Of a stretch of 20,000 bases of DNA, positions 5,394-20,000 are shown in pieces (positions within the stretch are counted from its first letter, which is position 1; each line of letters begins with the position of its first letter). This DNA comes from an uncultured virus (IMG/VR IMGVR_UViG_3300032250_000289) (lineage: Duplodnaviria > Heunggongvirae > Uroviricota > Caudoviricetes). Made by a program: the position numbers and the translations under genes. The stretch is taken from the IMG/VR virus record IMGVR_UViG_3300032250_000289; one strand, 5' to 3'. A model generated the notes under the pieces. The model worked only from the letters and a program-made list of their open reading frames with translations. It was not told the DNA's origin and did not search any database.

Positions 5394-5428
5394 AAAAAAA
5401 GCCACCCCCAAGCAAATGAGGGCGGCTT
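5394..5428 (-). terminator. Rho-independent terminator after the major capsid gene
   Basis: Minus strand AAGCCGCCCTCA-tttgct-TGGGGGTGGC-TTTTTTT: GC-rich stem with G:U pairs followed by a U7 tract. Confidence 0.85.
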
Positions 5429-5459
5429 AATTGTTAACCTATACTATTAGTATTATAGA

Positions 5460-6467: not shown

Positions 6468-6498
6468 GTTTAATTCTCCTTATATTTTTCTATTTAGA

Positions 6499-6966: not shown

Positions 6967-6988
6967 AATTTTTTCTCCTATTTTGAAA

Positions 6989-8437: not shown

Positions 8438-8460
8438 TATGTGTTACCTTTCAAAATTAG

Positions 8461-8467
8461 TATACAC
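8461..8467 (-). promoter_or_regulatory. Candidate late-promoter motif GTGTATA upstream of the protease/scaffold gene
   Basis: GTGTATACTAA in the 46-bp intergenic gap, 23 nt upstream of ATG 8437. Confidence 0.55.
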
Positions 8468-8483
8468 TAAAACTATTAAAAGG

Positions 8484-10571
8484 TTAAACTAGGGCATTTT
8501 GCTCAATAAATAAACCAATAATATTCGTGCGATAAATATCAATGTTCATGGTTTCTATATTTATATTTCTATCACTTAGCAATGTTTTAAATTCTATTGG
8601 AGTGGTCTTTTTGGCCATTAAAATGTCATTTATGCTCTGAGCGTTCACAACTTCTAATAATGGTAAATTTGTTAAAACATCTATCTTTAGCTGTTCAAGA
8701 TCATTGATCTGAGCCTTAGTTAACTGTCTAAGATTTTTCTTATTGTTGCAGCTTAAAAAAGCATTATTAAGAACATCCGTTAATTCTGACCAAGCTGATT
8801 CCGTCCATACTAATAATTCAGCAACTCCCGGTTTAGATTTAGGATTAGCAATCCTTTGCTTGCGGGGTTTTGTGTCTGTTGATAGTGGGGGTCTACCATT
8901 CTGGTTAGGAGAGGGTGCTGTTTTTGGAGCGCCACCGCCGCCAAATGGAGTTTTTGGAGGTTGAGCTAACAGCAAATCTTTTGGAACAGTAGTTTTAATA
9001 CCAACATCGCTTGGTAGAACTTTACCAGTTTGTAGGGCGATCTTTTCCAAAGCTTCTTTTTGCTGTGGATTATGGTAGGGACTTGCTTTATTAGGTGTTG
9101 TATCAGATGTTCTAGCTTCCATTTCTCTCTGCAATCTAATCTTTTCGATCTGTGGAATTTCTTTAAATCTTTCAATAACAGTTTCTTGACTAATAATGTC
9201 TCTGTCGGCAAGTTGAATAAGTAGATTCTTCTCGGCGGCTTCATCAGATAGTGTCATCTGATCAAACTGAATATATGCTTTATAACGAAAGCCCATAGCC
9301 TGACGAACAATTTCTATTTCTTTTTCCCAGAACTTAATTAGTAAATCTCTACCGTACTGTAGTCTTTCAACTAAAGTTTTGAGCGATATATAATTATTTG
9401 TAAAACCACCGCCGCCGGTTGCCATACCAGTTAACGTTGGAGGAACGCCTAGTCCAGCATAAATACTATTTAGAACAGAGGTATATTTTTCTGAACCTAA
9501 GAACTTGTATACTTCACTGCTAGCTTCTTTGAATGATAATTCTGGACCCCAAACTAGTTCCATTGTGCCGCCACCAACGTTACTAGCTAGAATATCTCTT
9601 AATTTATTAATAGCCGCCCTATTTGGTAGAATCTTATGTTCTAAGCTACCAAGGGTCCATAGTCTAATATTTGAGATAGCACCGTCCAAAGCTGACATGT
9701 CTGCTAATCTCATTTTCTCTAACATGATAATATCATCAAGAATTGAATAAATCATGGGGTCTGCCCATTCCTGCCAATCGTCTTTCTTGTAATGAAAAAC
9801 GCTCATTCGGTTTGGATCAAGGGCGACTTGCTTTTCGCCATTCTGCAAGCTTTGTTTTATGCCGTTAGGTAGACTATTTAATACGTCTGTTGGTAGATCG
9901 CCATCTTCAAAACGGTCTAAGAATGTTTGAACGTTAATGGTATAGCTAGGAACGCCAGTAAAGATGGACATTTTGCCATCCTTCATCTTAACGTTTAGGG
10001 GATTAAAAAAGTTGTATCTCCAAGGAATAAGGTTTTCTTTAATATTTGGAACCTCTACCTTGATATCAGAAGATAGAGCCTTCATGTAACTTTCTAATTC
10101 TGGAGTAACATTAGCTTTACTTCTATAGATAATAACATTGCCTGTTTTGTAAAGATTGTTCAAAAATCTTTCTGATCGATCTTTACCATTAATGCTTTTG
10201 AACCATTGCTGATAGAATTTCTCAACGCTCTTATTAGGGTGAACTATACTAATACCTTGGCTACCAAAATCTCCCATTAGATCAATAATATTTCTTATAA
10301 TGCCAACCTTACTATACGCATCGATGCACATTTTCATGGCTCGTTTTTGCTGGGAAGGAACCGCCTCGTTGGGTCTAAAGGCGTAGTAATCCTGTTTTGT
10401 AAATCCCGGCCTTACAGAACGATTTGGTTCAATATCCAAGAATGTACGATAAGTGCTACCTTGACTTTTAGATAATCCAGTATAGCTTTCAATATTATCA
10501 GAAAACTGAGACATTGCGCTAGCTTTGCTGTCTTGATTATCGTCTGACCAAGTGACCATATCGTTATTCAT
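8484..10571 (-). CDS. Portal protein, 695 aa
   Basis: Immediately downstream of the large terminase; size; portal-like segments (IIRNIIDLMGDF, SIYAGLGVPPTLTG, IQFDQMTLSDE, LADRDIISQET) and a Pro-rich tail with GRP. Confidence 0.8.
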   Translation of the reverse strand: MNNDMVTWSDDNQDSKASAMSQFSDNIESYTGLSKSQGSTYRTFLDIEPNRSVRPGFTKQDYYAFRPNEAVPSQQKRAMKMCIDAYSKVGIIRNIIDLMGDFGSQGISIVHPNKSVEKFYQQWFKSINGKDRSERFLNNLYKTGNVIIYRSKANVTPELESYMKALSSDIKVEVPNIKENLIPWRYNFFNPLNVKMKDGKMSIFTGVPSYTINVQTFLDRFEDGDLPTDVLNSLPNGIKQSLQNGEKQVALDPNRMSVFHYKKDDWQEWADPMIYSILDDIIMLEKMRLADMSALDGAISNIRLWTLGSLEHKILPNRAAINKLRDILASNVGGGTMELVWGPELSFKEASSEVYKFLGSEKYTSVLNSIYAGLGVPPTLTGMATGGGGFTNNYISLKTLVERLQYGRDLLIKFWEKEIEIVRQAMGFRYKAYIQFDQMTLSDEAAEKNLLIQLADRDIISQETVIERFKEIPQIEKIRLQREMEARTSDTTPNKASPYHNPQQKEALEKIALQTGKVLPSDVGIKTTVPKDLLLAQPPKTPFGGGGAPKTAPSPNQNGRPPLSTDTKPRKQRIANPKSKPGVAELLVWTESAWSELTDVLNNAFLSCNNKKNLRQLTKAQINDLEQLKIDVLTNLPLLEVVNAQSINDILMAKKTTPIEFKTLLSDRNINIETMNIDIYRTNIIGLFIEQNALV

Positions 10572-10613
10572 GTGTTATTCTCTTAATTGGATTGTAATTG
10601 GAATGGCTATGTA

Positions 10614-12596
10614 TTAATACACATCTTTCATGTTTTCTGAAAACCAACTAGGTGCGTTGTATAGCTTTTCATTTTCGTATGATTTTGTTTGCTCTCTACC
10701 TGTAGCAAATCCTCCATAGAAATTGTATACTTCTTGCTCTGGAGTTCTTTGTAAAACTCTAGCAGCCATATTGGCCATTAATAGTGCGGAATATCGGTCC
10801 TTCCTCATTTTGCTTTTCTTGCCGGTGCCTATTATATATTCTGGAGTATCCCATCTATCCCGACCAGAATTTGTTTGTGTCATTTGTATCATAGCCAATT
10901 CGTCCTTTAATTCCTCAATATCTAAAACACATTCTTCTAAAGTGTCGAACATTCTATGTTTGATATCATCTTGGGATGTGGACAGGCCAATAGAGATGGC
11001 ATCAAAGTATGGAAATAATAATGCTTTATCTTCAAAGTCTTTTCTCATGCCATGATTAGCTTCTGATAACCATTCATATCGTGCAAACTGACACATTTCT
11101 ACGATATGTAAGCCTCTTTCGCCATCGGTATCTTTTTCTTTTTCTGGATCAATAGTTGGCCATATTGCCATTTCTCCAGATTTAATTTTGTCTTGGTCGT
11201 GTAAAGATTCTATAATGGCTATACCGCCACCCTGCGCGTCAATAGCAATATGAATACATGGGTATAAGATCATTAAATCTCTAATTTTTCTAGCACAATA
11301 AGAATAGAAATCACTCTCTGTTGAATAGCCCTTTTTTACTTTCTCTTTATGTTCTGATCTAGTGGTTGTCCAACAATGCACAATTCTTCTGTGATCTGGA
11401 TTTATTTCTAATATAACGATACTAAAATTATCTACTTCAGAAGCGGGGTCAACACCAAAGATATATCTCTTATTTGGATCACCCATTAGCGTTGCCTCAA
11501 ATTTAATTTCCTGCCCCTTGCTATCTTTGATAGAATTATTATTTGACACCACGCAGGACTCAATTAATGAACGCTTAAAGAACCCCTGAGAGTCTCTAGT
11601 AAAGCAGCAACCAAACTCCATCTGATAAATACCAGCATGTACTGTAGCTTTTGATCGTGCTACTTGATCAGCATCCATAAAACCTTTTGGTAATAGCTCA
11701 TATGGCATTCTTATAATAGAATACTGGGTCCAATCAAAATTATCTGGGGCATCCTCGCCGTTGAACACTTCTCTTAATTTGGTGGGATTGCCACCGCTTT
11801 TAATAATAGCTTTCCATTTCTTCCAGTATGTAGCGAAATGATTAAAGTCATAGTAAGCTGTTCCAGATAAAATAATCTGGTTGTCTTTTATTTCTATATC
11901 TTTATTTTCTTCTTCTATCTGTATTCCAAGTTCTAAAGCTTTTCTTTGTGCGGCTAAACGTTTTACATTTTCAACAGGGTCCGCACTAACAGCAGCGAAA
12001 CCAGCCACCACGTTTTCAAAAATATCTCTTGGTATGCTTGCAAATTCGTCACTAATAATATCGTTTGCGCGCTGACCTCTAATTTTTTGACCATCACCAA
12101 GTGGTAAGCAAGTAATAGTGCTTTCATTAATTCGTAAAACACACCTGTCAGTATCTCTTCTTGGGCCACTATCAGAGTCGCATAAATCTCTTAACATGGG
12201 AGAATTGCGCCATATGGTTTCCATGTATTCAAAAATAATTTTACTCTGTCTAAAGGCGGCACCAACTACAACAATCTTTCGTCGTGGAAGTATTAATGCT
12301 CTTAATACAGCGTAGAGAGATAGCGTGAATGATTTACCAAATCCTCGACTAGCAATGAGCATGGGAAATTTTCTAGTCCATATCTCTTGTAAGATTAAAG
12401 CCTGTGATGGTAGCAACTGTATACCAAGAATATGGCTACAAATAAAAGATAAGTATTCTGGACGGGTCATAAGCCAAGCTAACTTTAAATGAAAGTCATC
12501 TTCACTGGGCTTTAATATAGACATTGGGTTGAAGATATTGGCATCTATATTATCAAGACCTAGCCAAGCTTCATCTATCTTCTTAAGATTATTCAT
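10614..12596 (-). CDS. terL: Terminase large subunit, 660 aa
   Basis: Walker A ASRGFGKS, IRGQRAN, Walker B IISDEFA, motif III LSGTA, RNase-H-like nuclease IFGVDPA...D and KDRYSAL. Confidence 0.93.
   Translation of the reverse strand: MNNLKKIDEAWLGLDNIDANIFNPMSILKPSEDDFHLKLAWLMTRPEYLSFICSHILGIQLLPSQALILQEIWTRKFPMLIASRGFGKSFTLSLYAVLRALILPRRKIVVVGAAFRQSKIIFEYMETIWRNSPMLRDLCDSDSGPRRDTDRCVLRINESTITCLPLGDGQKIRGQRANDIISDEFASIPRDIFENVVAGFAAVSADPVENVKRLAAQRKALELGIQIEEENKDIEIKDNQIILSGTAYYDFNHFATYWKKWKAIIKSGGNPTKLREVFNGEDAPDNFDWTQYSIIRMPYELLPKGFMDADQVARSKATVHAGIYQMEFGCCFTRDSQGFFKRSLIESCVVSNNNSIKDSKGQEIKFEATLMGDPNKRYIFGVDPASEVDNFSIVILEINPDHRRIVHCWTTTRSEHKEKVKKGYSTESDFYSYCARKIRDLMILYPCIHIAIDAQGGGIAIIESLHDQDKIKSGEMAIWPTIDPEKEKDTDGERGLHIVEMCQFARYEWLSEANHGMRKDFEDKALLFPYFDAISIGLSTSQDDIKHRMFDTLEECVLDIEELKDELAMIQMTQTNSGRDRWDTPEYIIGTGKKSKMRKDRYSALLMANMAARVLQRTPEQEVYNFYGGFATGREQTKSYENEKLYNAPSWFSENMKDVY
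10616..10622 (-). promoter_or_regulatory. Variant late-promoter motif GTGTATT overlapping the terL stop, upstream of portal
   Basis: GTGTATTAATA, 44 nt upstream of ATG 10571; one mismatch to GTGTATA and constrained by coding sequence. Confidence 0.35.
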
Positions 12597-13227
12597 TCCT
12601 ATTCCAATCGGTCATAATAGCATCTGCAAACCCGTAATAAACAGCTTCCTCAGAATTTAAATACCAATCACCAGACTTTAATTTCCTAATTAAATATTGT
12701 TTGACTTGTTTTTCACTAGGCTTTTTGCCAAATTTATCTTTAAAGAATTGACCATCAACGCACCTTTTAGCATAAAGATCAAACATTACACTGGCGCACC
12801 TGCGCTCATAGTCAACAAAATTCTGTACGCTAAGATAGTCAGAACCAATATCCGTTGATCCATAATGACTCATAAAGTATGCGTTCTTAGTCATGTATCT
12901 ATAATCAGCAGCTTGTAGGATAATACTACTCATTGACTCGGCCTGACCGTAAACAATAACGCTTACATAAGATCGGCACATTGTTATAGCATCAAAAATA
13001 GCCATCCCATCAGACCATTCCCCACCAACACTGTGCATGTGTATAGTGATGGGGTTATTGTTCCGTAAATCCAATCCTCTTAAGTTCTTAATAAATGTAT
13101 TGGACATTCTATATTCAACGCCGGGATTCTGATTATCTTCAGTATGATAGTGGTTATGAAGAAATATTTCTCTGGTATTTATATTGGCACCATAGTCATG
13201 AAAATCTTTCAATAATTCTGGTTCCAT
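12589..13227 (-). CDS. clpP: ClpP-family serine protease (peptidase S14), about 212 aa
   Basis: HSVGGEWSDGMAIFDAI, GQAESMSSIILQAA (catalytic Ser), FMSH (His), GDWYLNSEEAVYYGFADAI (Asp). Start moved from the track's 13260 to ATG 13227, which has a GGAG RBS and abuts the upstream stop. Confidence 0.9.
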   Translation of the reverse strand: MEPELLKDFHDYGANINTREIFLHNHYHTEDNQNPGVEYRMSNTFIKNLRGLDLRNNNPITIHMHSVGGEWSDGMAIFDAITMCRSYVSVIVYGQAESMSSIILQAADYRYMTKNAYFMSHYGSTDIGSDYLSVQNFVDYERRCASVMFDLYAKRCVDGQFFKDKFGKKPSEKQVKQYLIRKLKSGDWYLNSEEAVYYGFADAIMTDWNRNE

Positions 13228-13228
13228 G

Positions 13229-13720
13229 TTAATCTCCATTTCCCGTGTTATACATTTCATTGATTCGTTTCAGTATACTGCTAACTGCTAAGAATGCGTC
13301 GTATTTACTACCACAGAATAGAACGTGTATGTTGTGTTGAATTTGAAATTCAAATAAACATTTTAACATATATTTACCAGTTATTTTGATATTATTTTTA
13401 TTTTCTGATGGGATGCGGGAGTCTTTGGGAAACTTTAACAAGTCCTCTAAAGAAAATTCTAGAACGATAAACTTGTGTGGAAACTTTGTCATGCGATCTA
13501 TTTCGTTCATGAAGGCGTGTTTTTTAACACCCAAGTTTCCAGCCAATTCTTCAACGCATCCCTTACGTTCAATGCATATCTTGTCCTCAAGACCCTGTAT
13601 GCTATAGTCTCCTGTATCCAATTTTGTTTCTATCATTCCAGCGCAAGTGTTGTACTCTTTAAAAAAGTATCCGTCTTGCTCTCTGGTGTCTTTAATAACT
13701 ATGAATGATTTATTCGCCAT
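13229..13720 (-). CDS. ERCC4 (XPF/Mus81-type) domain nuclease, 163 aa
   Basis: IKDTREQ...LDTGDYSI...CIERKG signature (GDx(n)ERK). Confidence 0.85.
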   Translation of the reverse strand: MANKSFIVIKDTREQDGYFFKEYNTCAGMIETKLDTGDYSIQGLEDKICIERKGCVEELAGNLGVKKHAFMNEIDRMTKFPHKFIVLEFSLEDLLKFPKDSRIPSENKNNIKITGKYMLKCLFEFQIQHNIHVLFCGSKYDAFLAVSSILKRINEMYNTGNGD

Positions 13721-13970
13721 TGATGATTTCTATAAACAATGCTTCGTAGTGTCGTTCTTGATCTTTAATAGACTTGTGACAGTTGTAACACAAAGTAATA
13801 CCGTTGGATGTTTCATACCTTAATGAGCTAGCAGAACTCCACGGTCTAATGTGGTGAACCTGTAGCCTAGACTTACTATCGCACTGAGGCATTCTACACT
13901 TAAATTTATCTCTTTTAAGTATGTCTGTTCTCCACTTTTTATATACGGGATCGCTGTAATTACGTTTCAT
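13710..13970 (-). CDS. HNH endonuclease, 86 aa
   Basis: WRTDILKRDKFKCRMPQC...LQVHHIRPW...NGITLCYNCH. Confidence 0.92.
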   Translation of the reverse strand: MKRNYSDPVYKKWRTDILKRDKFKCRMPQCDSKSRLQVHHIRPWSSASSLRYETSNGITLCYNCHKSIKDQERHYEALFIEIINGE

Positions 13971-14215
13971 AGTGAGTATATTTTATCTATTCTAGACTCT
14001 TTTCGTATTCTTCTACAAATAATTCTCATTTTGATTGATGGATCTTGATCTAGTAATATTTTAATTAAACCATTTATTACGTCTACGCATACCATATCTG
14101 GGTCTGTAGCTGTAATAAACACCGTTGGAAATGGTGAGTTATATCCTTTTAGATTTAAATGTCTTATATTAACGTAAATGTTAGAAATGTCCAACATTAC
14201 TCTGTAGTTTTTCAT
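13967..14215 (-). CDS. Hypothetical protein, 82 aa
   Basis: Co-oriented ORF overlapping both neighbours; no recognisable motif. Confidence 0.7.
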   Translation of the reverse strand: MKNYRVMLDISNIYVNIRHLNLKGYNSPFPTVFITATDPDMVCVDVINGLIKILLDQDPSIKMRIICRRIRKESRIDKIYSL

Positions 14216-15266
14216 TTATTCTGTCATTTAACATGAGTATTACTAGTTGCTCTAGGTCACATTTTGGTTTCCATCCTAATTTTTCTTGAGCTTTAGAGGA
14301 ATCACCACGAAGATAATTTACTTCTGCTGGCCTGTAAAACTCTGGGTCTATATAAATAAAGTTTAAAGGTTCATCGATATAGAAATATTTGAAAGCCTTG
14401 TCTATAAAATCTTTTATTGTGTGTGTTTTTCCAGTACATATAACATAGTCATCTGGTTCATGTTGCTGAAGCATAATGTGCATAGCCTCAACATAATCGC
14501 CAGCATATCCCCAATCTCTACAGGATTCAATATTGCCTAATCTAAGCTTTGGAAATTTAATTTCATTAGGGGTATGTAGAATATGTTCTGCTGAGAAAGT
14601 TAAATCATTAATATTTATCTTGTGTCGTTCAGTCCAATTAATAAAGTCAACTAGCCAGTTTGTAATTTTTTTGGTGACAAACTCATCGCCACGGCGCGGA
14701 CCTTCGTGATTAAATAAAATACCAGAACTAGCGTGTAGGCCATAAGCTTCCCGGTATAGTCGAACGGCAAAATGTGCGGCACATTTAGCTATCGCATATG
14801 GTGATTGGGGAAGAAATTTTGTCTCCTCATTTTGATACTTATTTCCATGACAATCTGTGTCACAAGAATCTCCAAACATCTCGCTAGATGATGCTTGATA
14901 GAATCTTACCCACTGCATATTGTTATCTAATATAGCTTGTAAAATATTGATACAACCCTTACCGGTTATATCCCAAGTTAGCCCCGGTTGCTTAAAAGAG
15001 GTTCCAACATGCGACTGTGCTGCTAGATTATAAATTTCATCTACTTCATCATAATCTTTAAGAATATTTGTGACACTACTAACATCTGTAATATCGCCCT
15101 CAATCAATTCAAATGATGGATTTCCCTTTAGATGTTTAATTCTCTGTGTGGTATCTACGCTGCATCGTCTAGCAACACCAACAACCCTATAATCCTTAGA
15201 TAGTAAAAGATCGGCTAGATGGCTACCATCTTGTCCTGTTATTCCGAATATAATTGCAGTCTTCAT
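14181..15266 (-). CDS. gmd: GDP-mannose 4,6-dehydratase
   Basis: GITGQDGSHLA, YNLAAQSHVGTSF, FYQASSSEMFG, PQSPYAIAK (YxxxK), GILFNHEGPRRG.EFVTKKI, LGN...RDWGYAGDYV, RPAEVNYLRGDSSKA. Confidence 0.95.
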   Translation of the reverse strand: MKTAIIFGITGQDGSHLADLLLSKDYRVVGVARRCSVDTTQRIKHLKGNPSFELIEGDITDVSSVTNILKDYDEVDEIYNLAAQSHVGTSFKQPGLTWDITGKGCINILQAILDNNMQWVRFYQASSSEMFGDSCDTDCHGNKYQNEETKFLPQSPYAIAKCAAHFAVRLYREAYGLHASSGILFNHEGPRRGDEFVTKKITNWLVDFINWTERHKININDLTFSAEHILHTPNEIKFPKLRLGNIESCRDWGYAGDYVEAMHIMLQQHEPDDYVICTGKTHTIKDFIDKAFKYFYIDEPLNFIYIDPEFYRPAEVNYLRGDSSKAQEKLGWKPKCDLEQLVILMLNDRINEKLQSNVGHF

Positions 15267-15898
15267 AAACCTTCCTCTTCCTTTATTTTAAAATAATCCT
15301 CTGTAAATTTTCCTTTTCTCATAGCTTCTAAATACCAAGGACTATGTTGTGCTGAGTACCAAATGTTGTGCGCCCTATTTTGATTTAATCTTTCACTTCC
15401 ATTAACTTCAAATTCCCAAGGATTTTCATTTTCTATTAAAGATGATTCTAAAAATTGCTTATTCCATATTGAAGCCTGCATGGATATAGAATACAAAGTA
15501 AATTGATTCATTTTATATAGATTGTCTTTAACACAAACGCTATTATATAAGCTACTATTTTCATGGATGCCAAATCTATTTATATTAAGACTTTCTACTA
15601 GATTAAAATAGGATTCAAACTCTTCTTTGAATATTGTTTTTCTAAAAAAGTAATCGTCTTGTAGCCAAAGGATGTAATCATCTTCTATAACTTGACAAGC
15701 TTTCTTTACACATTGAGAGTATGGAACGACGCCAGCAGTGATCCACTTAAAGTTATCAAACTTCTTTGTTGTGGTTTCAGTTAAGAAGTATTTCTCACAC
15801 TCTATATTATGATCCCAATACTTATTAAACAGTTCAACAAAGTCATTCCATAAGAAATGATACTTGTCGCACGTATTTATTAAAATAGAGAATTTCAT
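15263..15898 (-). CDS. Putative GT-A-fold glycosyltransferase, 211 aa
   Basis: FSILINTCDKY...W...F...FNKYW N-terminus, YILWLQDDYFF (DxD-like), SMQASIWNK, ENPWEFE; ATGA-coupled to gmd. Confidence 0.65.
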   Translation of the reverse strand: MKFSILINTCDKYHFLWNDFVELFNKYWDHNIECEKYFLTETTTKKFDNFKWITAGVVPYSQCVKKACQVIEDDYILWLQDDYFFRKTIFKEEFESYFNLVESLNINRFGIHENSSLYNSVCVKDNLYKMNQFTLYSISMQASIWNKQFLESSLIENENPWEFEVNGSERLNQNRAHNIWYSAQHSPWYLEAMRKGKFTEDYFKIKEEEGL

Positions 15899-16686
15899 TC
15901 TTTTACTGTGTCTGGTGTAAGGAATGGTTGATCAACAACCCCGTCCTCATATTTATGATAGGCTGAAAGTCTATCTTTTTCTTTCTCCATCGCCATTCTC
16001 ATCTTCTCCATCTCAATACCATACTTCTTCATAGTCTCTGGGTCTTGCATTAAGTGAGCCACCCACGACACGAAGCTTTGTTTACTATCTTCTAGTCGTT
16101 TAATACGCTGCTCTCTGGTTCCCTTCATCTCCCTTAACATTCCAGCTTTTTTACCTTGAAGCTCGCGGTAATCTTTGTTTAATGACTCCTGAGAGGCCCG
16201 TAGAGATGCTACCTGACGTTCCAAATTAAATATGTAGTCTTGGTCGCGTTGATCTTTATCAAGAGCCCTCTCGTCTTTAATCAACTTGTCAAAAGTGTTC
16301 ATGTCGATTATATTGTCTTTGCTAGACTTTAAGCACCTATTCATTAATAGTTCCAACTTAATAACGTCTACCACCTGTAATTCTTCTGTTGGAAATACAT
16401 CATCTTTAAACTGGGCAATAATACGACTCCAGTGATATTTAAATAGTTCCAACTCTTCTTCAGTAAACTGGCTTCCTAGTTCGTGATAATATGGGCGATC
16501 CTCTAATGAGAAAGCTGCCGCCTCTTCGCCCGATATCCCCACTTTAAATTTTCGCTTAACGAAGTTGTCAATCGACTCAACATCCCTATCTAATTTATGA
16601 GCGATATCTTCCACCGTCATACTGTCGATGAGCCGCCCTATGATTCGCTCTTCGTCTTTGCTAATTCTACCTTTTTTCATAACCAT
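15895..16686 (-). CDS. HTH plus coiled-coil protein, candidate terminase small subunit (start may be ATG 16680)
   Basis: N-terminal HTH-like MTVEDIAHKLDRDVESIDNFVKRK, long coiled coil, upstream of terL in the same operon; function inferred. Confidence 0.5.
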   Translation of the reverse strand: MVMKKGRISKDEERIIGRLIDSMTVEDIAHKLDRDVESIDNFVKRKFKVGISGEEAAAFSLEDRPYYHELGSQFTEEELELFKYHWSRIIAQFKDDVFPTEELQVVDVIKLELLMNRCLKSSKDNIIDMNTFDKLIKDERALDKDQRDQDYIFNLERQVASLRASQESLNKDYRELQGKKAGMLREMKGTREQRIKRLEDSKQSFVSWVAHLMQDPETMKKYGIEMEKMRMAMEKEKDRLSAYHKYEDGVVDQPFLTPDTVKE

Positions 16687-17167
16687 TATCCCCCAGTATA
16701 TTTTGTATAATAGCTATTATTTCTTCGCGTCGTTTTTTAGGAACATAAACGTCGTTTATAATCTTAAGATAATCTGACCTATAGTTTGAGGGCAGGGCGC
16801 TGTCTATAATTTTTTTAATATCGGACGCATCTATAAAGTCATCGCCGTTATTTTCATTATCGGGCACATAATCTTCATAAGATAATTGTTTGGGCGATAA
16901 GATTTTCTTTTTATCATCTTCATTCTTGTTATAGAAATTGTCGCGGACGAAATTCTTAAGACGATTACTTAGGTGAACAGAAAGAAAGTTTTCTAGTGGG
17001 CGATTGTGGTCGTATCTTTCAAGGGCATCTACGCATATAATAAACGCCTCTTGTTTTATATCATCAACTTCATAACCATTAAATGTATACTTGGGCGATA
17101 TCCTATCAACCACTGTGGATATGGAACTCATAACTTGTTGTAAACTCATGTTGGGAGGTATTTTCAT
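16667..17167 (-). CDS. Sigma70 region-2-like protein (phage sigma factor), 166 aa
   Basis: YEVDDIKQEAFIICVDALERYDHNRPLENFLSVHLSNRLKNFVRD resembles the region-2 pattern D..Qe..i....a...yd....f..y.....n.....R. Confidence 0.7.
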   Translation of the reverse strand: MKIPPNMSLQQVMSSISTVVDRISPKYTFNGYEVDDIKQEAFIICVDALERYDHNRPLENFLSVHLSNRLKNFVRDNFYNKNEDDKKKILSPKQLSYEDYVPDNENNGDDFIDASDIKKIIDSALPSNYRSDYLKIINDVYVPKKRREEIIAIIQNILGDNGYEKR

Positions 17168-17928
17168 GCTATCTCGCTAAGTAATGTATTCCATTTTTCT
17201 CCATCATAAAATTTTAAAGTTTTGGCGGTGGCGTCGTAATATAGGTTGCCTTCTTTTAAAGAGGGCGAGTCTGATGGGTTAAGTTGAAGATTGTTGGTTG
17301 ATAAGTTTTTAACAACTAACTTAGACGTTTTAAGAGATAGTTGGTTTTTGTATGACGAGATAGCATCTTTTATGTAATTTATAAACTCATCACTATTAGT
17401 ATCTAAACTCACAATATCATCTTTTACGCGAGCTAAGAAAGAATTCTCTTGTAAGCTGACCATGTTGGCGCAACAAGAGTCGTGAGAAGTTAATACTGAG
17501 TGGGGCAGAATAAGAGCTTCTTGATGAGAGTGGGGGAATGTTGAATAAGCAATAATATATTCATGGGGCTGGGGCATAAAAGATGAAGAGCCATTATGGC
17601 AGGCTGAAACCTGAGAAGAGTTGGGGCCATAACAAATGGGGATAGATCGTTCTAAGTAATATTGGTCATCTATCTTTTTAACGTTACCGACCCCTCTTTC
17701 ATGTTGGATAACTTTATCATTAGATATAAGTTCCAAAACGTAGAAGAAAGAGTTTTCTCCAAACATTCTACGGAAAGAGTGGCATTTATTTGTTGTGCCA
17801 CATTCTATACTGCGCGCTAATTCAGCGTTACATTCAGCGAGGGCTTTTGTGCCAGCTAGCCTATAGTTAGTTCCATCTTCATTAATTACTAATTCAAGTG
17901 CTGGAATCTTGCTCGTCTTTATCTTCAT
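17164..17928 (-). CDS. Hypothetical, probably virion-associated protein, 254 aa
   Basis: C-terminal EGNLYYDATAKTLKFYDGEKW is a motif common in phage fibre/structural proteins; ATGA-coupled to the next gene. Confidence 0.6.
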   Translation of the reverse strand: MKIKTSKIPALELVINEDGTNYRLAGTKALAECNAELARSIECGTTNKCHSFRRMFGENSFFYVLELISNDKVIQHERGVGNVKKIDDQYYLERSIPICYGPNSSQVSACHNGSSSFMPQPHEYIIAYSTFPHSHQEALILPHSVLTSHDSCCANMVSLQENSFLARVKDDIVSLDTNSDEFINYIKDAISSYKNQLSLKTSKLVVKNLSTNNLQLNPSDSPSLKEGNLYYDATAKTLKFYDGEKWNTLLSEIA

Positions 17929-18064
17929 CTTTGTCCTCTAGTGATCCTAGTAGTTCCGACATTGGAATGTCTGGTTTGTTAATTTCATTTTCAATTTCAG
18001 ACTTTAAAGAGGCCGTTGCTCTACAGTCTAATTGAGATTCAATTGTAATTGGTTTGTTGCTCAT
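17894..18064 (-). CDS. Small acidic protein, 56 aa (MSNKPITIESQLDCRATASLKSEIENEINKPDIPMSELLGSLEDKDEDKDEQDSST); first gene of the leftward operon
   Basis: ATG 18064 with AGGAG RBS at 18071-18075; TGA at 17894-17896; not in the ORF track. Confidence 0.75.
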   Translation of the reverse strand: MSNKPITIESQLDCRATASLKSEIENEINKPDIPMSELLGSLEDKDEDKDEQDSST

Positions 18065-18083
18065 AATTTTCTCCTGTACCTAT

Positions 18084-18090
18084 TATACAC
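18084..18090 (-). promoter_or_regulatory. Candidate late-promoter motif GTGTATA(ATA) at the head of the leftward operon
   Basis: GTGTATAATAG 19 nt upstream of ATG 18064; includes TATAAT but no TTGACA-like -35. Confidence 0.6.
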
Positions 18091-18240
18091 TGATAATAAC
18101 AATATTACCAAATAGGGGCTATGGGGGAGGATTGGGTAATACATAAGGATAATTTTTGGTTATTGTGAATGAACCACCCCCGAGTTTTTCCGCAGTTTGC
18201 CTAGCTTAACTAATGAAGATAAAACCCCCACCTTATCTAT

Positions 18241-18256
18241 ACTGCCTATCTTAACA
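18241..18256 (+). repeat. 16-bp direct repeat copy 1 (ACTGCCTATCTTAACA), preceded by AAACCCCC
   Basis: 15/16 identity to 19612-19627. Confidence 0.8.
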
Positions 18257-18263
18257 TTTTACG

Positions 18264-18341
18264 TAAGTCGTTATGTATCAAAGGTTTAGTGTCTCCACTC
18301 CCCGCCCAACTCGTCGTAAGTCTATATCTGACAACACTTTA
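18264..18341. repeat. Dyad-pair element copy 1: two TAA-N4-WT-N7-AA-N4-TTA boxes (18264-18288, 18317-18341) around a GC-rich 28-bp spacer
   Basis: TAAGTCGTTATGTATCAAAGGTTTA and TAAGTCTATATCTGACAACACTTTA; the first contains an exact IHF consensus WATCAANNNNTTR at 18276-18288. Confidence 0.75.
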
Positions 18342-18354
18342 CGTCGAGTGTAGA

Positions 18355-18370
18355 CGCATACGGTGTGCCA
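18355..18370 (-). promoter_or_regulatory. Sigma54 (RpoN) -24/-12-like box, leftward
   Basis: Minus strand TGGCACACCGTATGCG: TGGCAC with GG-N10-GC spacing. Confidence 0.55.
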
Positions 18371-18436
18371 TTCTGTAAAAAAATATTGTGATTCATTTGG
18401 CATGAAAATATATTTAGAAAAATCCAAAGATTTTGC

Positions 18437-18464
18437 TTGCAAGTGTCGATCTATACTGTATAAT
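18437..18464 (+). promoter_or_regulatory. Sigma70-type early promoter P1
   Basis: TTGCAA-N16-TATAAT with AT-rich upstream tract. Confidence 0.7.
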
Positions 18465-18501
18465 GAAAGCACAAGAGAACAACGAAGCAAAGGAAAAGAA
18501 A

Positions 18502-18705
18502 ATGAACAACAACGAAATCAAAATTGGCAGCAACGTAGTGTGGAACTTTGTGTTCGAAAGGGCTGAAGATTCTGGGGTAGTTGTAGAGATCAAGGGAGAT
18601 AAGGTATCTGTGGAATATAAGGTGATGGGCAAGGTATATAGGGATATGTTGAGCATGGACGAAATCATGCTGGAGTCGGAATATAATTCGCAATATTCTT
18701 TCTAA
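18502..18705 (+). CDS. Small early protein, 67 aa, possibly an SH3/KOW-like beta-barrel
   Basis: ATG after AAGGAAAAGAAA; MNNNEIKIGSNVVWNF...SGVVVEIKGDKVSVEY; start revised from the track's 18433. Confidence 0.8.
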   Translation: MNNNEIKIGSNVVWNFVFERAEDSGVVVEIKGDKVSVEYKVMGKVYRDMLSMDEIMLESEYNSQYSF

Positions 18706-18710
18706 GGTAC

Positions 18711-18739
18711 TTGACACGGGCCAACCGATACTATATAAT
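18711..18739 (+). promoter_or_regulatory. Sigma70 consensus promoter P2
   Basis: TTGACA-N17-TATAAT, exact consensus. Confidence 0.9.
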
Positions 18740-18773
18740 ACAGAGACAAGAGAAAAGGAAAAGGAATAGAAAA

Positions 18774-18932
18774 ATGAAAACGTTTTACTTCTACAGTTTT
18801 GATGGTCACAAGTTTATCGGTCAAGCTGATGCAGCCGATTGGATGGTAGCTCGCAAGATTGTTGCAGATGCAACAGGCTTTCCAGTAGATGACATGCTTC
18901 CCTATAGCTCAAAGAATATTTGGCAATTCTAA
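18774..18932 (+). CDS. Small early protein, 52 aa (MKTFYFYSFDGHKFIGQ...)
   Basis: AAGGA RBS, own promoter P2; start revised from the track's 18711. Confidence 0.8.
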   Translation: MKTFYFYSFDGHKFIGQADAADWMVARKIVADATGFPVDDMLPYSSKNIWQF

Positions 18933-18942
18933 GCTAATGGGC

Positions 18943-18971
18943 TTGACAGGATATAGCCGATACTATATAAT
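18943..18971 (+). promoter_or_regulatory. Sigma70 consensus promoter P3
   Basis: TTGACA-N17-TATAAT; shares CCGATACTATATAATACAG with P2. Confidence 0.9.
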
Positions 18972-19004
18972 ACAGGCACAAGGAAACAAACGATGGAAAA
19001 GAAA

Positions 19005-19148
19005 ATGATCTACTGGAATACCTCTAATCGTACAGGCGATAGGTATGAGGTATGGTATGATGGTAAGGTAGTCGCACGACACATTACCTTCAATGAATGT
19101 TGGGCGCTCGTTGAATCACTCCAAGCAAAAGAAGAGGTATGCGTATGA
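19005..19148 (+). CDS. Small early protein, 47 aa (MIYWNTSNRTGDRYEVWYDGKVVARHITFNECWALVESLQAKEEVCV; alternative ATG 18993)
   Basis: GGAAAAGAAAATG leader after P3; TGA overlaps the next ATG; not in the ORF track. Confidence 0.75.
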   Translation: MIYWNTSNRTGDRYEVWYDGKVVARHITFNECWALVESLQAKEEVCV

Positions 19149-19450
19149 CACACTACGAAGCTACTCAGATGGTACATGGTAAGACTAAGCGTAACACTCG
19201 TAAGGTAGGTAACAATACATATGCAGAGATACTGCCCGATGGTAGTGTAGCTATTATCCTACATGGTACGACTGTTGTACGTATTCATCCCGATAACAGT
19301 GCTACACTCAATACGGGTGGATGGTATAGCAGTACCACTAAGGATAGGATGAACAAGTATTCACCTGTACGTGTGTACCAGTGTAAGGGCGAATGGTATC
19401 TCAACAATGATGATAACACGCCATATGAGGATGGTATGACTGTACGGTAG
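19145..19450 (+). CDS. Uncharacterised phage early protein, about 101 aa
   Basis: GAGG RBS, ATGA coupling to the upstream ORF; motif LHGTTVV...LNTGGWYSSTTKDRMN recalled from a common phage hypothetical family. Confidence 0.8.
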   Translation: MTHYEATQMVHGKTKRNTRKVGNNTYAEILPDGSVAIILHGTTVVRIHPDNSATLNTGGWYSSTTKDRMNKYSPVRVYQCKGEWYLNNDDNTPYEDGMTVR

Positions 19451-19475
19451 TACAGTAGTGTACAACGACTCGACG

Positions 19476-19553
19476 TAAACCCTTGGTACGTAAGGACTTA
19501 GGGCGAATCGGGCGGGCCGCATTTGACGTAACTCCTTATCCCATAAGGGTTTA
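19476..19553. repeat. Dyad-pair element copy 2 (19476-19500, 19529-19553), inverted relative to copy 1
   Basis: TAAACCCTTGGTACGTAAGGACTTA and TAACTCCTTATCCCATAAGGGTTTA; spacer GGGCGGG is the complement of CCCGCCC in copy 1; flank ACTCGACGTAAA is the reverse complement of TTTACGTCGAGT. Confidence 0.8.
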
Positions 19554-19611
19554 CAGCACGTTTTTGTAGTACCCAAGCTAATCCGGTAGCCAAACCCCCC
19601 AGTTTACGCAA

Positions 19612-19627
19612 ACTACCTATCTTAACA
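19612..19627 (+). repeat. 16-bp direct repeat copy 2 (ACTACCTATCTTAACA), preceded by AAACCCCCC
   Basis: 15/16 identity to 18241-18256. Confidence 0.8.
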
Positions 19628-19630
19628 CAC

Positions 19631-19646
19631 AGCAAATATCGTGCCA
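19631..19646 (-). promoter_or_regulatory. Sigma54 (RpoN) -24/-12 consensus box, leftward
   Basis: Minus strand TGGCACGATATTTGCT, an exact match to TGGCACG-N4-TTGCW. Confidence 0.7.
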
Positions 19647-19710
19647 ATTGAATAGAAAATACTGAAAAGTTTTGTCAAAATCTCTTGACAATATTCTTGG
19701 AATTTTTCCC

Positions 19711-19738
19711 TTGCAAGTTCAAGAAGGGATGGTATAAT
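19711..19738 (+). promoter_or_regulatory. Sigma70-type promoter P4 (extended -10)
   Basis: TTGCAA-N16-TATAAT with TGnTATAAT. Confidence 0.75.
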
Positions 19739-19780
19739 GTCGATATAAGAAGTAAGAAAGAAAGAAAGAAGGATAAGAAA

Positions 19781-19909
19781 ATGGAAATGATCAAAATCAC
19801 AAAAAATACAACTGCAATGGTTCGAAATGGCAAGGTAATCTACCTTGTGCAAAATGGAAAAATTACCCAAGATCCTCTGAAAGTTCGATATTTTCAAAGA
19901 ATGATTTAA
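19781..19909 (+). CDS. Small basic early protein, 42 aa (MEMIKITKNTTAMVRNGKVIYLVQNGKITQDPLKVRYFQRMI)
   Basis: AAGGATAAGAAAATG leader after P4; start revised from the track's 19685. Confidence 0.75.
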   Translation: MEMIKITKNTTAMVRNGKVIYLVQNGKITQDPLKVRYFQRMI

Positions 19910-19912
19910 GGG

Positions 19913-19940
19913 TTGACAACTAAAAAGACGATGCTATAAT
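19913..19940 (+). promoter_or_regulatory. Sigma70-type promoter P5 (extended -10)
   Basis: TTGACA-N16-TATAAT with TGnTATAAT. Confidence 0.85.
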
Positions 19941-19972
19941 AGAGAAAAGAACAAAGGACAAAGGAAAAGAAA

Positions 19973-20000
19973 ATGATGACTCTCGACAAGGTTATGGCAG
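19973..20000 (+). CDS. Start of another early ORF (MMTLDKVMA...), truncated by the window edge
   Basis: AAGGAAAAGAAAATG leader identical to that at 18490-18504; follows P5. Confidence 0.7.

What the first reader, a model, noticed from the sequence alone, without database searches (positions are those of the whole stretch)
18221..19740. Duplicated composite cis-module (dyad pair + 16-bp repeat + leftward sigma54 box + rightward TTGCAA promoter) punctuating the early-gene array
Seen: the same four parts occur twice, about 1.2-1.4 kb apart. They are (i) a pair of 25-bp dyads, (ii) AAACCCCC...ACTRCCTATCTTAACA, (iii) a minus-strand TGGCAC-N5-WTGC box (18355-18370; 19631-19646) and (iv) a CTTGCAAGT...TATAATG promoter with a 16-nt spacer starting 66 and 64 nt after the box. 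Only these two module-adjacent promoters use TTGCAA; the three internal ones use TTGACA. The dyad pair is inverted between copies and swaps order with the 16-bp repeat. Inference: this is a purpose-built nucleoprotein platform (host RpoN holoenzyme plus an IHF/HU-like bender) that gates blocks of early genes. Alternatives are titration of host factors or assistance with genome entry or packaging. I do not know of a described phage element with this architecture.
Basis: partly seen in the sequence, partly recalled or inferred. Interest (0 to 1): 0.85.

Follow-up and report, generated by a model that had tools for sequence, protein, structure and literature searches.

The report
Phage sigma-54 promoter and palindrome junctions
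Two control junctions in the early region of an uncultured phage pair a leftward sigma-54-type promoter with a rightward ordinary early promoter next to a repeated double palindrome, and related phages keep this core, so the phage probably uses a host transcription factor that phages rarely rely on.

Summary
Relatives split the "module" into pieces of unequal standing.

1. The "dyad pair" is one ~95-bp double palindrome: two 27-bp units 53 bp apart around a GGCGGGCC centre. It is multi-copy only in the early regions of related phages. It shows no RNA covariation and also occurs without sigma-54 boxes, so I read it as a protein-binding DNA site.

2. TGGCAC-N5-TTGC is a real family element. It gave 37 hits in 921 kb, all in early regions. 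All 7 hits in one complete 166.6-kb relative lie within 2.9 kb. In relatives the same box replaces a sigma-70 promoter in front of the same mRNA leader.

3. A leftward box sits 64-66 bp from a TTGCAA-type sigma-70 promoter in 7 of 8 places across 5 phages (44 bp in the eighth). Only 1 of 97 TTGACA promoters has such a box.

4. The 16-bp repeat is not part of the conserved core. Its reverse complement reads TGnTAAGAT, a leftward extended -10.

IHF/HU involvement is not supported. Complete or near-complete relatives encode no sigma-54, enhancer-binding ATPase or recombinase. The host and the activator are unknown, and no RNA data were available. This scan noted the same family before on other DNA (e1-5738449).

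The parts
18112..18232 (-). Conserved non-coding block of fixed length (121-123 nt) between the palindrome and the first leftward gene. Its blocks read GGGGGTTTTATCTT, GGGGTGGTTCA and ATGTATTACCCAATCC.
   Evidence: Found in 20 distinct sequences, all 121-123 nt long. RNAalifold gave only 7 or 4 invariant pairs and 0 compensatory changes on either strand.
18173..18212 (+). A third, diverged copy of the C-run...GCCTAGCTTAAC motif, in tandem with the copy at 18221-18256.
   Evidence: CCTAGCTTAAC at 18200-18210; the rest read directly.
18221..18256 (+). Its reverse complement reads TGTTAAGAT (18256-18248), a TGn + TAAGAT extended -10 pointing left, followed by GGGGGTTTT.
   Evidence: D4 repeat, 78% identity over 36 nt. 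aTGtTAAgAT is kept in 10 of the 19 boundary sequences aligned. The promoter reading is inference.
18254..18351 (-). Double palindrome, copy 1. Units at 18264-18289 and 18317-18342; centre CCCCGCCC at 18300-18307 on the plus strand.
   Evidence: RNA folding is weak on both strands (z 0.2 and -1.9).
18356..18370 (-). Sigma-54-type -24/-12 box 1 (TGGCACACCGTATGC), pointing left. The palindrome unit starts 13 nt downstream, and the expected start site is near 18344.
   Evidence: Homologous boxes are present in L089 and L146 and absent in L082, L085, L151 and L095.
18437..18464 (+). Sigma-70-type early promoter TTGCAA-16-TATAAT, divergent from box 1 with a 66-nt gap. It starts the first early block (ATG at 18502).
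19466..19560 (+). Double palindrome, copy 2, starting 16 nt after the stop codon of ORF 19139-19450. Units at 19475-19500 and 19528-19553; centre GGGCGGGCC at 19510-19518.
19562..19591 (+). Partial inverted copy of the ATGTATTACCCAATCC block of the boundary region (compare 18117-18146).
   Evidence: Inverted repeat I2, 30 nt, 70% complementary. Not found at this place in L089, L085, L082 or L146.
19592..19627 (+). Its reverse complement gives TGTTAAGAT (19627-19619). Together with TTGGCA (19647-19642) this forms a leftward sigma-70-like promoter that overlaps box 2.
   Evidence: One search scored it 9 of 12 with TG present. The segment is specific to this window: relatives carry a second, face-to-face sigma-54 box here.
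19632..19646 (-). Sigma-54-type box 2 (TGGCACGATATTTGC), pointing left. The expected start site is near 19620.
   Evidence: The -24 and -12 elements are invariant and the 5-nt spacer varies across all 5 aligned sequences.
19673..19690 (+). Dyad TGTCAA-N6-TTGACA in the spacer between box 2 and the TTGCAA promoter.
   Evidence: Read. Conserved in L089, L085 and L082 and upstream of L146's boundary box. Function unknown.
19711..19738 (+). Sigma-70-type early promoter TTGCAA-16-TATAAT with TG before the -10, divergent from box 2 with a 64-nt gap. Its leader reads GATATAAGAAGTAAGA.
   Evidence: Relatives place a sigma-54 box in front of the same leader.

Best explanation
The two 'modules' are control junctions between transcription units in the early region of an uncultured tailed phage. 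Relatives of this phage have genomes of about 130-167 kb.

Each junction has a conserved core: a back-to-back promoter cassette next to a double palindrome. A host sigma-54 holoenzyme site (-24 TGGCAC, -12 TTGC) points left, towards the operon that carries the phage sigma-like factor and the virion genes. A sigma-70 promoter with the weakened -35 TTGCAA points right and starts the next block of small early genes.

The ~95-bp double palindrome has four CGTAAryCC half-sites on one face of the helix and a GGCGGGCC centre. I read it as the binding site of a still unidentified sequence-specific protein. Depending on which side the box lies, that protein would act as operator or as enhancer for the neighbouring promoters.

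In the window both boxes fire into or towards the palindrome. In module 1 the palindrome would occupy about +2 to +95 of the transcript. So the palindrome-bound protein most likely decides whether sigma-54-driven leftward transcription proceeds. In module 2 that transcription runs antisense to the early genes; in both modules it heads towards the leftward operon.

Shown: the anatomy, its conservation, the enrichment of the box, and the spacings. Inferred: use of sigma-54, protein binding to the palindrome, and the direction of regulation.
For: The box.
- It gave 2 hits in the window against 0.05 expected.
- It gave 37 strict hits in 921,039 bases of the window plus 80 related loci, all in early regions.
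- Five whole relatives gave 15 hits against 0 for the reversed control. All 7 hits in the complete G001 lie within 142190-145066 of 166,604 bases.
- The logo over 39 contexts reads TT-TGGCAC-R-N4-TTGC-W with a variable spacer.
- In 13 of those 39 contexts the box stands about 35 nt before an early-gene ATG. It then precedes the same leader, GATATAAGAAG, that follows the window's TTGCAA promoter, at the distance expected for one shared start site.

The cassette.
- 8 of 14 TTGCAA promoters have a divergent box at 66, 64, 64, 64, 66, 64, 65 or 44 nt. Only 1 of 97 TTGACA promoters does.
- At the early/late boundary, the 3 phages with the leftward box have TTGCAA and the 4 aligned phages without it have TTGACA.

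The palindrome.
- 38 distinct copies were found.
- 24 of 28 aligned copies have no gap between the two units, which keeps the 53-bp offset.
- G001 has 10 places, all within 142,085-159,283.
- The arms are conserved in sequence, not in pairing. The commonest combinations include mismatches on the strand shown: A.C in 19 of 28 at columns 16-34, G.G in 10 of 28 at columns 12-38, and C.C 7 plus C.A 7 of 28 at columns 72-84.
- RNAalifold gives 0 pairs on either strand.
- Seven boxes lie exactly 13 nt from a unit.

No intrinsic terminator was found on either strand of 17800-20000.
Against: - The host is unknown, so the presence of rpoN is unverified.
- Five relatives, one of them complete, encode no Sigma54_activat ATPase and no sigma-54. 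An activator would have to come from the host or be of a new kind.
- Box orientation relative to the palindrome is not fixed: boxes point inward at 13 nt, outward at 30-50 nt, face to face 5 nt apart, or back to back. No single operator or enhancer geometry explains all of these.
- Five full palindromes in G001 have no box within 180 nt even when 2 mismatches are allowed. The palindrome's main job may therefore have nothing to do with sigma-54.
- A leftward box at the boundary is present in only 3 of 20 related boundary regions.
- An enhancer lying inside the transcribed region is unusual.
- No transcript data could be obtained.
- Many relatives are close to one another, so the counts are not independent events.
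Confidence: 0.5

Rival explanations
1. The junctions are PeSL-like boundary cassettes. The palindrome acts at the RNA level as a hairpin terminator, attenuator or processing site that insulates early operons. The repeats serve mainly as homology for modular gene shuffling, and the sigma-54 boxes are just one more promoter type in the kit.
For: - In G001 the palindromes start a few bases after the last stop codon of a gene block. In two cases they end 30-31 nt before the next sigma-70 promoter.
- The distal G001 copies form good sense-strand hairpins by my reading.
- Some copies fold well, with z down to -4.8.
- Gene content differs between the window and L089 at promoter/leader repeats.
- L146's boundary cassette is the best match to the window's module-2 cassette, at 88.8%.
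- PeSLs are documented promoter plus stem-loop cassettes (PMC2839356, passages read).
Against: - There is no consensus fold on either strand and no compensatory changes.
- There is no U-tract and no terminator-like site.
- The window's copy 1 barely folds.
- The conserved GGCGGGCC centre and the strict 53-bp offset are not needed for hairpins.
- The gene insertions and deletions seen here break at promoter repeats, not in the palindromes.
Confidence: 0.17
2. The TGGCAC-N5-TTGC boxes are not read by host sigma-54. A phage-encoded factor reads them: a DNA-binding protein, or the phage sigma-like protein with a partner. The resemblance to -24/-12 promoters is convergent.
For: - No enhancer-binding ATPase is encoded in 5 relatives.
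- Boxes occur as face-to-face and back-to-back inverted pairs, as binding sites often do.
- The window encodes a small Sigma70_r2 protein at 16667-17167.
- The host is unknown.
Against: - The motif matches the sigma-54 consensus at all ten core positions with the canonical GG-N10-GC spacing, plus the flanking T and W preferences (the consensus itself is recalled).
- In relatives it sits at the promoter distance from a shared leader.
- Sigma-70-family factors do not use elements 5 nt apart (established knowledge).
Confidence: 0.13
3. The boxes are parking or decoy sites. Sigma-54 holoenzyme binds them as a stable closed complex that is never activated. It then serves as a roadblock or insulator beside the palindrome, or it titrates host sigma-54.
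For: - No activator gene was found.
- Inward-facing and face-to-face boxes make little sense as productive promoters.
- Boxes cluster in one 2.9-kb zone.
Against: - Thirteen of 39 boxes stand where a productive promoter should, in front of early genes with a shared leader.
- Two to seven sites per genome is a weak sink.
- I know of no precedent (recalled).
Confidence: 0.1
4. A promoter with a fixed-distance downstream element is a transcription-primed replication origin. On this reading the palindrome, or its G-rich centre, acts as an R-loop or unwinding zone.
For: - The gap from box to palindrome is a fixed 13 nt in 7 cases.
- The centre is G-rich on one strand.
- The arrangement resembles T4 oriF/oriG, which pair a promoter with a downstream unwinding element (recalled).
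Against: - G001 has ten copies spread over 17 kb, half of them without a box.
- The G-rich strand is the RNA-like strand for only some of the boxes.
- The element is G+C-rich at its centre rather than A+T-rich.
Confidence: 0.05

Closest known systems
Bacterial enhancer-dependent sigma-54 (RpoN) promoters, such as glnAp2/NtrC and pspA/PspF (recalled)
   Same: The core is TGGCAC-N5-TTGC with GG-N10-GC spacing, with the -24 and -12 elements conserved and the spacer free. Paired dyad sites lie nearby on one face of the helix (53 bp, about 5 turns).
   Different: No enhancer-binding ATPase or sigma-54 gene was found in the relatives. In the window the dyads lie downstream of the box, at about +2 to +95, rather than 80-150 bp upstream. 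The same dyads also occur without any box. No IHF site was found.
PeSL (promoter-early stem-loop) cassettes of T4-type phages (PMC2839356, abstract and passages read)
   Same: Repeated composite regulatory motifs punctuate arrays of small, variable early genes. They include strong sigma-70 promoters and a palindromic element, and gene content differs between relatives at the repeats.
   Different: PeSLs are about 100 bp, purely sigma-70, with a GGGG...CCCC stem-loop shown to terminate transcription. Here the palindrome is a 95-bp two-unit element without a conserved fold or U-tract. It lies 82-150 nt from the promoter, and a sigma-54-type box is part of the kit.
Sigma-54-like promoter of Pseudomonas phage YuA (Ceyssens et al. 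2008, as cited in PMC10914365; passages read)
   Same: A virulent phage without its own RNA polymerase for which both sigma-70-like and sigma-54-like promoters are reported.
   Different: That paper ties a single mapped start site (P015) to a sigma-54-like region. It reports no array, no palindrome partner and no divergent sigma-70 coupling.
Early/late switch region of Bacillus phage phi29, with p4 and p6 acting on promoters A2c, A2b and A3 (recalled, not checked in a paper here)
   Same: Divergent early and late promoters are separated by a short region that holds several ~27-bp imperfect inverted repeats. A small phage protein binds them, represses one direction and activates the other. This is the closest analogue for how the junction may work.
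   Different: In phi29 all the promoters are sigma-A type and the regulator is known. The repeats differ in sequence, and sigma-54 is not involved.
Overlapping sigma-54 and sigma-70 promoters of glmY/glmZ
   Same: In module 2 the box overlaps a leftward sigma-70-like promoter, TTGGCA-17-TGtTAAGAT, with nearly the same predicted start site.
   Different: The sigma-70 match is weak (9 of 12). That segment is found only in this window, and nothing has been tested.

Membership tests
Sigma-54-dependent -24/-12 promoter | TGGCAC-N5-TTGC core with GG-N10-GC spacing | tested here: met
   Both window boxes fit: one is exact and the other has ATGC at -12. The 39-context logo agrees.
Sigma-54-dependent -24/-12 promoter | The -24 and -12 elements are conserved while the spacer varies between relatives | tested here: met
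   In alignment A4, GCAA and GTGCCA are invariant in 5 of 5 sequences and the spacer differs.
Sigma-54-dependent -24/-12 promoter | Placed so that a transcript starts about 12 nt after the -12 GC | tested here: inconclusive
   In relatives, 13 of 39 boxes precede early genes and share a leader with sigma-70 promoters.
Sigma-54-dependent -24/-12 promoter | The host encodes sigma-54 and an enhancer-binding AAA+ activator is available | not testable with these tools
   The host is unknown. Phage relatives G001-G005 carry no PF00158 or PF04552.
Enhancer (UAS) of an enhancer-binding protein | Paired dyad sites on one helical face | tested here: met
   The two units lie 53 bp apart, with no gap between them in 24 of 28 aligned copies.
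Enhancer (UAS) of an enhancer-binding protein | Lies about 80-150 bp upstream of the sigma-54 promoter it serves, and occurs with such promoters | tested here: not met
   In the window the dyads lie downstream of both boxes (13 and 77 nt). Five full copies in G001 have no box nearby. Some relatives do have outward-facing boxes 30-50 nt away.
PeSL mobile regulatory cassette | A sigma-70 early promoter plus a stable stem-loop terminator within one ~100-bp repeated intergenic motif | tested here: not met
   Promoter repeats are present (D1 and D2). But the palindrome has no consensus fold, there is no terminator-like site, and the palindrome lies 82-150 nt from the promoter.
Rho-independent terminator | G+C-rich hairpin followed by a U-tract | tested here: not met
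   0 sites on either strand of 17800-20000.
IHF binding site | WATCAANNNNTTR between the enhancer and the promoter | tested here: not met
   No match in 18371-18436 or 19647-19710. The only nearby hit, at 18276-18288, lies inside a palindrome unit. The window has 5 hits against 2.4 expected.
Site-specific recombination site (hix/res/attC-like) | A cognate serine or tyrosine recombinase is encoded by the element | tested here: not met
   No PF00239 or PF00589 in 5 relatives, including the complete G001.
Known structured RNA family | A match to an Rfam model, or a tRNA | tested here: not met
   0 Rfam matches at E<=1 in 17900-20000. No tRNA in the window.

The most novel reading that the evidence does not exclude
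This phage family runs an early-to-middle switch on the host's sigma-54 polymerase without encoding any known activator. Leftward sigma-54 promoters sit inside the early region. Each is coupled at a phase-preserving 64-66 bp (44 bp in one case) to a weakened TTGCAA early promoter, and each is gated by a new palindrome-binding protein. When these promoters fire, they silence early blocks by antisense transcription and feed the operon that carries the phage sigma-like factor. This would require either a host stress-activated enhancer-binding protein co-opted by the phage or a new, non-AAA+ way of opening sigma-54 promoters.
Probability: 0.2. Interest if true: 0.85.

Novelty: new variant of a known kind. 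Interest (0 to 1): 0.6.

Why it matters
Textbook phage transcription programmes use host sigma-70, phage sigma factors or phage polymerases. The only phage sigma-54 promoter I found in print is a single promoter region of phage YuA (PMC10914365).

Here a widespread aquatic phage family places canonical sigma-54 boxes in its early region, with more than 598 terminase relatives in IMG/VR. It swaps these boxes with sigma-70 promoters in front of the same leader, and it links them to a family-specific double palindrome. It does so without carrying an activator gene.

If the boxes work, they raise a directly testable question: who opens sigma-54 promoters during infection? They would also provide natural divergent sigma-54/sigma-70 promoter cassettes.

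If the boxes do not work as promoters, the strict conservation of a sigma-54 site next to a protein-binding palindrome still needs an explanation.

Tried and rejected
- RNA gene or structured RNA. Rfam gave 0 hits and there are no tRNAs. RNAalifold found no fold for the palindrome on either strand. For the 121-nt block it found only invariant pairs.
- Intrinsic terminators: none.
- IHF site: none in the spacers.
- Invertible segment or recombination sites: no recombinase in 5 relatives.
- Phage-encoded sigma-54 or activator: none.
- Cyanophage hint from a Kyano_Gp96 domain: no psbA in 5 relatives, so the host stays open.
- Host from an auxiliary gene: the GDP-mannose dehydratase search returned 8000 unnamed metagenome proteins and said nothing about the host.
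- Host regulon through the palindrome unit. A scan of bacterial genomes gave more than 122 loci. By my reading of the contexts that one search printed (its output was cut), most are ordinary terminator hairpins. The few full elements lie on short contigs binned to MAGs of unrelated lineages, which are probably mis-binned phage.
I did not follow these up.
- The 254-aa neighbouring protein found no relatives with the search for related loci.
- DNA search of cultured phages: no match. The terminase is at most 28.7% identical to that of any cultured phage.
- Salmonella rpoN phage-resistance paper (PMC8744999, passages read): the effect is indirect, through glutamine and RpoS, so it is no precedent.
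Full report
WHAT THE WINDOW IS. The window is a piece of a tailed phage. Bases 1-18064 carry leftward genes, including the large terminase (10614-12596), a ClpP-like head protease, an ERCC4 nuclease, an HNH nuclease, a GDP-mannose dehydratase and a small Sigma70_r2 protein (16667-17167). From 18502 onward small rightward ORFs follow, each behind a near-consensus sigma-70 promoter. No cultured phage matches at the DNA level, and the terminase is at most 28.7% identical to that of any cultured phage. IMG/VR holds many relatives: 598 of 601 candidate stretches were confirmed, and I kept and used 80 loci. Five of these lie on contigs of 101-167 kb. One of them, G001 (166,604 bases with terminal repeats), is rated complete.

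CHECK OF THE OBSERVATION.
- TGGCAC-N5-WTGC occurs twice, both on the minus strand, against 0.05 expected.
- The two TTGCAA-16-TATAAT promoters lie 66 and 64 nt from the boxes, and the three internal promoters use TTGACA.
- The dyads are 53 bp apart in both copies. Copy 2 on the plus strand aligns with copy 1 on the minus strand.

THE DYAD PAIR IS ONE REPEATED DNA ELEMENT. A profile built from the two window copies found copies in the early regions of relatives, 38 distinct ones in all. An alignment of 28 copies gives this consensus: TTGACGTAAAcCCTT-N7-AAGGACTTAgGGCGA-N4-GGCGGGCCg-N2-TTTGACGTAAnTCCTT-N7-AAnGACTTACGAC. In 24 of the 28 rows there is no gap between the two units, so the 53-bp offset, about five helical turns, is kept.

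The arms are conserved as sequence and not as pairs. GTAA and GACTTA are nearly invariant. The commonest combinations at several predicted pair positions are mismatches on the strand shown: A.C in 19 of 28 (a G.U wobble on the opposite strand), G.G in 10 of 28, and C.C 7 plus C.A 7 of 28. I saw no compensatory pattern. RNAalifold predicts no pair on either strand. Single-sequence folding z-scores run from +1.2 to -4.8 with no strand preference, and the window's copy 1 scores 0.2 and -1.9. I therefore read the element as a double-stranded protein-binding site with four CGTAAryCC half-sites on one face and a G+C-rich centre.

In G001 a sequence-only model finds 22 matches (both strands counted) at 10 places, all between 142,085 and 159,283. 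The distal copies begin a few bases after the last stop codon of a gene block. In two cases they end 30-31 nt before the next sigma-70 promoter, and they have no sigma-54 box nearby even when 2 mismatches are allowed. The palindrome is therefore an independent punctuation mark of the early region.

THE SIGMA-54-TYPE BOX IS REAL IN THIS FAMILY. The strict core TGGCAC-N5-TTGC occurs 37 times in the 921,039 bases of the window plus 80 loci, in 15 sources and always in the early region. This count includes overlapping contigs such as L082/L158. In five whole relatives it occurs 15 times against 0 for the reversed pattern, and in G001 all 7 hits lie in 142190-145066. In the 19-kb G001 early region, 20 sites keep GG and GC with at most 2 mismatches, against a mean of 2.9 (maximum 8) in 50 shuffles. 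Across 39 distinct 115-nt contexts the logo is T(32)-TGGCAC-R-N4-T(34)TGC-W(32) with a variable spacer. This matches the sigma-54 consensus as I recall it.

By my reading of those 39 contexts:
- 13 boxes stand about 35 nt before an early-gene ATG.
- 9 point into a palindrome unit. In 6 of these 9 the gap to the unit is exactly 13 nt; a seventh 13-nt case, L106, has a TGGCAT box that lies outside this set.
- 4 sit at the early/late boundary and point at the early genes.
- 7 are in face-to-face pairs 5 nt apart.
- 3 are in back-to-back pairs.
- 3 are other cases, among them the window's box 2.

The strongest functional hint comes from alignment A5. Boxes in relatives are followed by TCTATATATA-GATATAAGAAG..., and the window's TTGCAA promoter is followed by TATAAT-GTC-GATATAAGAAG.... 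The two promoter types therefore stand at their proper distances from the same leader.

WHICH PARTS OF THE MODULE ARE CONSERVED TOGETHER. Module 2 aligns end to end with L089, L085, L082 and L146. In these alignments I see the palindrome, then the leftward box with invariant -24 and -12 elements and a free spacer, then a conserved spacer holding TGTCAA-N6-TTGACA, then the TTGCAA promoter and its leader. In L146 the dyad is missing (20-nt deletion). The C5/TTAAC part is missing from all four relatives, which carry a second box there, face to face with the first.

Module 1 aligns with six relatives. All 7 sequences have the palindrome and the GGGGGTTTTATCTT block, although L089 keeps only one palindrome unit. 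Only the window, L089 and L146 have the box, on a ~60-nt segment that the other four lack. Exactly those three have TTGCAA where the other four have TTGACA.

Over all loci, 8 of 14 TTGCAA promoters have a divergent box at 44-66 nt, seven of them at 64-66. Only 1 of 97 TTGACA promoters has one. Several of these loci are close relatives, so the number of independent events is smaller. Among 20 boundary regions, 14 have palindrome units within 170 nt, 3 have a box pointing at the late genes, and 6 have one pointing at the early genes; L146 has both. The conserved core is therefore the palindrome plus a divergent sigma-54/TTGCAA promoter cassette, in a sub-lineage of the family.

THE 16-BP REPEAT. 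Read leftwards it is TGTTAAGATAGGYAGT, that is TGn plus TAAGAT, an extended -10 shape. The motif aTGtTAAgAT is kept right after the palindrome in 10 of 19 aligned boundary regions. In module 2 it combines with TTGGCA to give a sigma-70-like promoter that overlaps box 2, scored 9 of 12 with TG present. The region had 10 such matches in all against 6.6 expected, so this hit is weak on its own.

The 'AAACCCCC' of copy 1 is the reverse complement of the first block of a non-coding region that is 121-123 nt long in all 20 sequences found. That region has invariant blocks and variable spacers and shows no covariation. Behind it lies a TTGGTA-18-TATAAT promoter and an AGGAG site for the first leftward gene. 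Part (ii) therefore belongs to the control region of the leftward operon. Its presence in module 2 is a rearrangement specific to this window. The same is true of the inverted partial copy of the ATGTATTACCCAATCC block at 19562-19591.

WHAT IS MISSING. The five relatives encode no Sigma54_activat ATPase, no sigma-54, no resolvase and no tyrosine recombinase. There is no IHF consensus in the spacers, no Rfam family and no terminator-like site. The host could not be named. The dehydratase search was uninformative, psbA is absent, and full palindromes found in bacterial assemblies lie on short contigs binned to unrelated lineages. Read data were not available for this window.

HOW IT MOST LIKELY WORKS. 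My reading (confidence 0.5) is that each junction is a bidirectional promoter node next to a protein-bound palindrome. Sigma-70 polymerase starts the next early block rightwards from the weakened TTGCAA promoter. Sigma-54 polymerase sits on the leftward box.

In module 1 its transcript would begin at the first palindrome unit, cross the palindrome and the 121-nt block, and enter the operon that carries the phage sigma-like factor. In module 2 it would run through the C5/TTAAC segment and the palindrome, antisense to the early genes, with no terminator-like site on the way. A protein on the palindrome would decide whether this happens.

The conserved 64-66-bp coupling points to cross-talk between the two promoters, as does the single 44-bp variant, which is two helical turns shorter. 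The anatomy and conservation are shown. Sigma-54 use, protein binding and the sign of regulation are inferred.

The main objections are these:
- The geometry between box and palindrome varies.
- Palindromes also occur without boxes.
- No activator has been identified.
- The host is unknown.

The rivals I kept are RNA-level or PeSL-like insulators, a phage factor reading the box, sigma-54 parking sites, and transcription-primed origins.

COMPARISON AND NOVELTY.
- PeSL cassettes of T4-type phages are the nearest described 'punctuation' of early-gene arrays. They are sigma-70 only and have a proven stem-loop terminator (PMC2839356, abstract and passages read).
- Phage YuA is reported to depend on sigma-70 and sigma-54, with one start site tied to a sigma-54-like region (PMC10914365, passages read).
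- The phi29 p4/p6 switch is the closest mechanistic analogue (recalled).
- Three full-text searches found no description of sigma-54 box arrays or of a box-plus-palindrome unit in phages. In those searches I read only the listings and the passages named above.
- The scan noted the same family earlier on other DNA (e1-5738449: a box 14-15 bases from a double palindrome in a 167-kb freshwater phage). My 13-nt gap to the GTAA of the unit agrees with that note.

I class the finding as a new variant of a known kind and give it interest 0.6.

Noticed in passing
window 18112-18232 (minus strand); 19 related loci listed: A non-coding block whose length is held at 121-123 nt in all 20 sequences. It has three invariant sequence blocks, variable spacers that often hold their own small hairpins, and no covariation. 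It could be a nucleoprotein assembly site or a leader for the leftward operon.
   Followed up: partly
L115:3690-3830, L124:2645-2780 and six more loci, compared with window 19655-19790 (alignment A5): The promoter type is swapped at a homologous site. Relatives put a sigma-54-type box in front of the same GATATAAGAAG leader where the window has a TTGCAA sigma-70 promoter. That box comes with a conserved upstream dyad, GCGTTTTTCCCGCGAAATACGC, and an A-tract.
   Followed up: partly
L082:1583-1617, L085:796-830, L089:1837-1871: Two perfect sigma-54-type boxes face each other only 5 nt apart, at the place where the window has the C5/TTAAC segment. Two polymerases could not occupy both at once.
   Followed up: no
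window 18702-18773 and 18934-19005; also 18440-18479: The sigma-70 promoters and their leaders are 63-72% identical repeats. The window and L089 differ by whole small genes at these repeats: window 18505-18942 has no counterpart in L089, and L089 has about 335 extra bases between the window's third and fourth ORFs. This looks like PeSL-style shuffling.
   Followed up: partly
window 19673-19690: A perfect dyad, TGTCAA-N6-TTGACA, sits between box 2 and the TTGCAA promoter. It is conserved in L089, L085 and L082 and upstream of L146's boundary box. It is absent from module 1 of the window.
   Followed up: no
window 16667-17167 (minus strand): A 166-aa protein with only a Sigma70 region-2 match (Pfam E 7e-6, PHROG sigma factor E 7e-7). 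It lies in the operon that the leftward promoters would feed and is a candidate phage late sigma factor.
   Followed up: no
window 19139-19450 (plus strand): An early 103-aa protein of the Kyano_Gp96 family (PF23790, E 1e-7), a family named after cyanophages. No psbA was found in 5 relatives.
   Followed up: partly
L184, L198, L195, L236, L217, L274 (genome contigs): Full double palindromes lie on contigs of 1.8-12 kb (L274's contig length was not shown) binned into MAGs labelled Micavibrio, Planctomycetaceae, Nitrospinaceae, Thalassolituus and Enterobacterales (L274's label was not shown). These are probably phage contigs mis-binned into bacterial genomes, so they are no guide to the host.
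   Followed up: partly
L159 7044-8639 and 14628-14705 (G001 148.5-156.2 kb): Six tRNA genes (Lys, Thr, Asn, Glu, Asp, Ile-tat) lie inside the early region of the complete relative.
   Followed up: no
G001 146876-146890 and 150192-150206 (L159): Half palindromes (one unit plus the G+C centre) end in a degenerate box, TGGCACGAAAAtCGC, where the second unit would be. The second unit and the box may be evolutionarily interchangeable.
   Followed up: no
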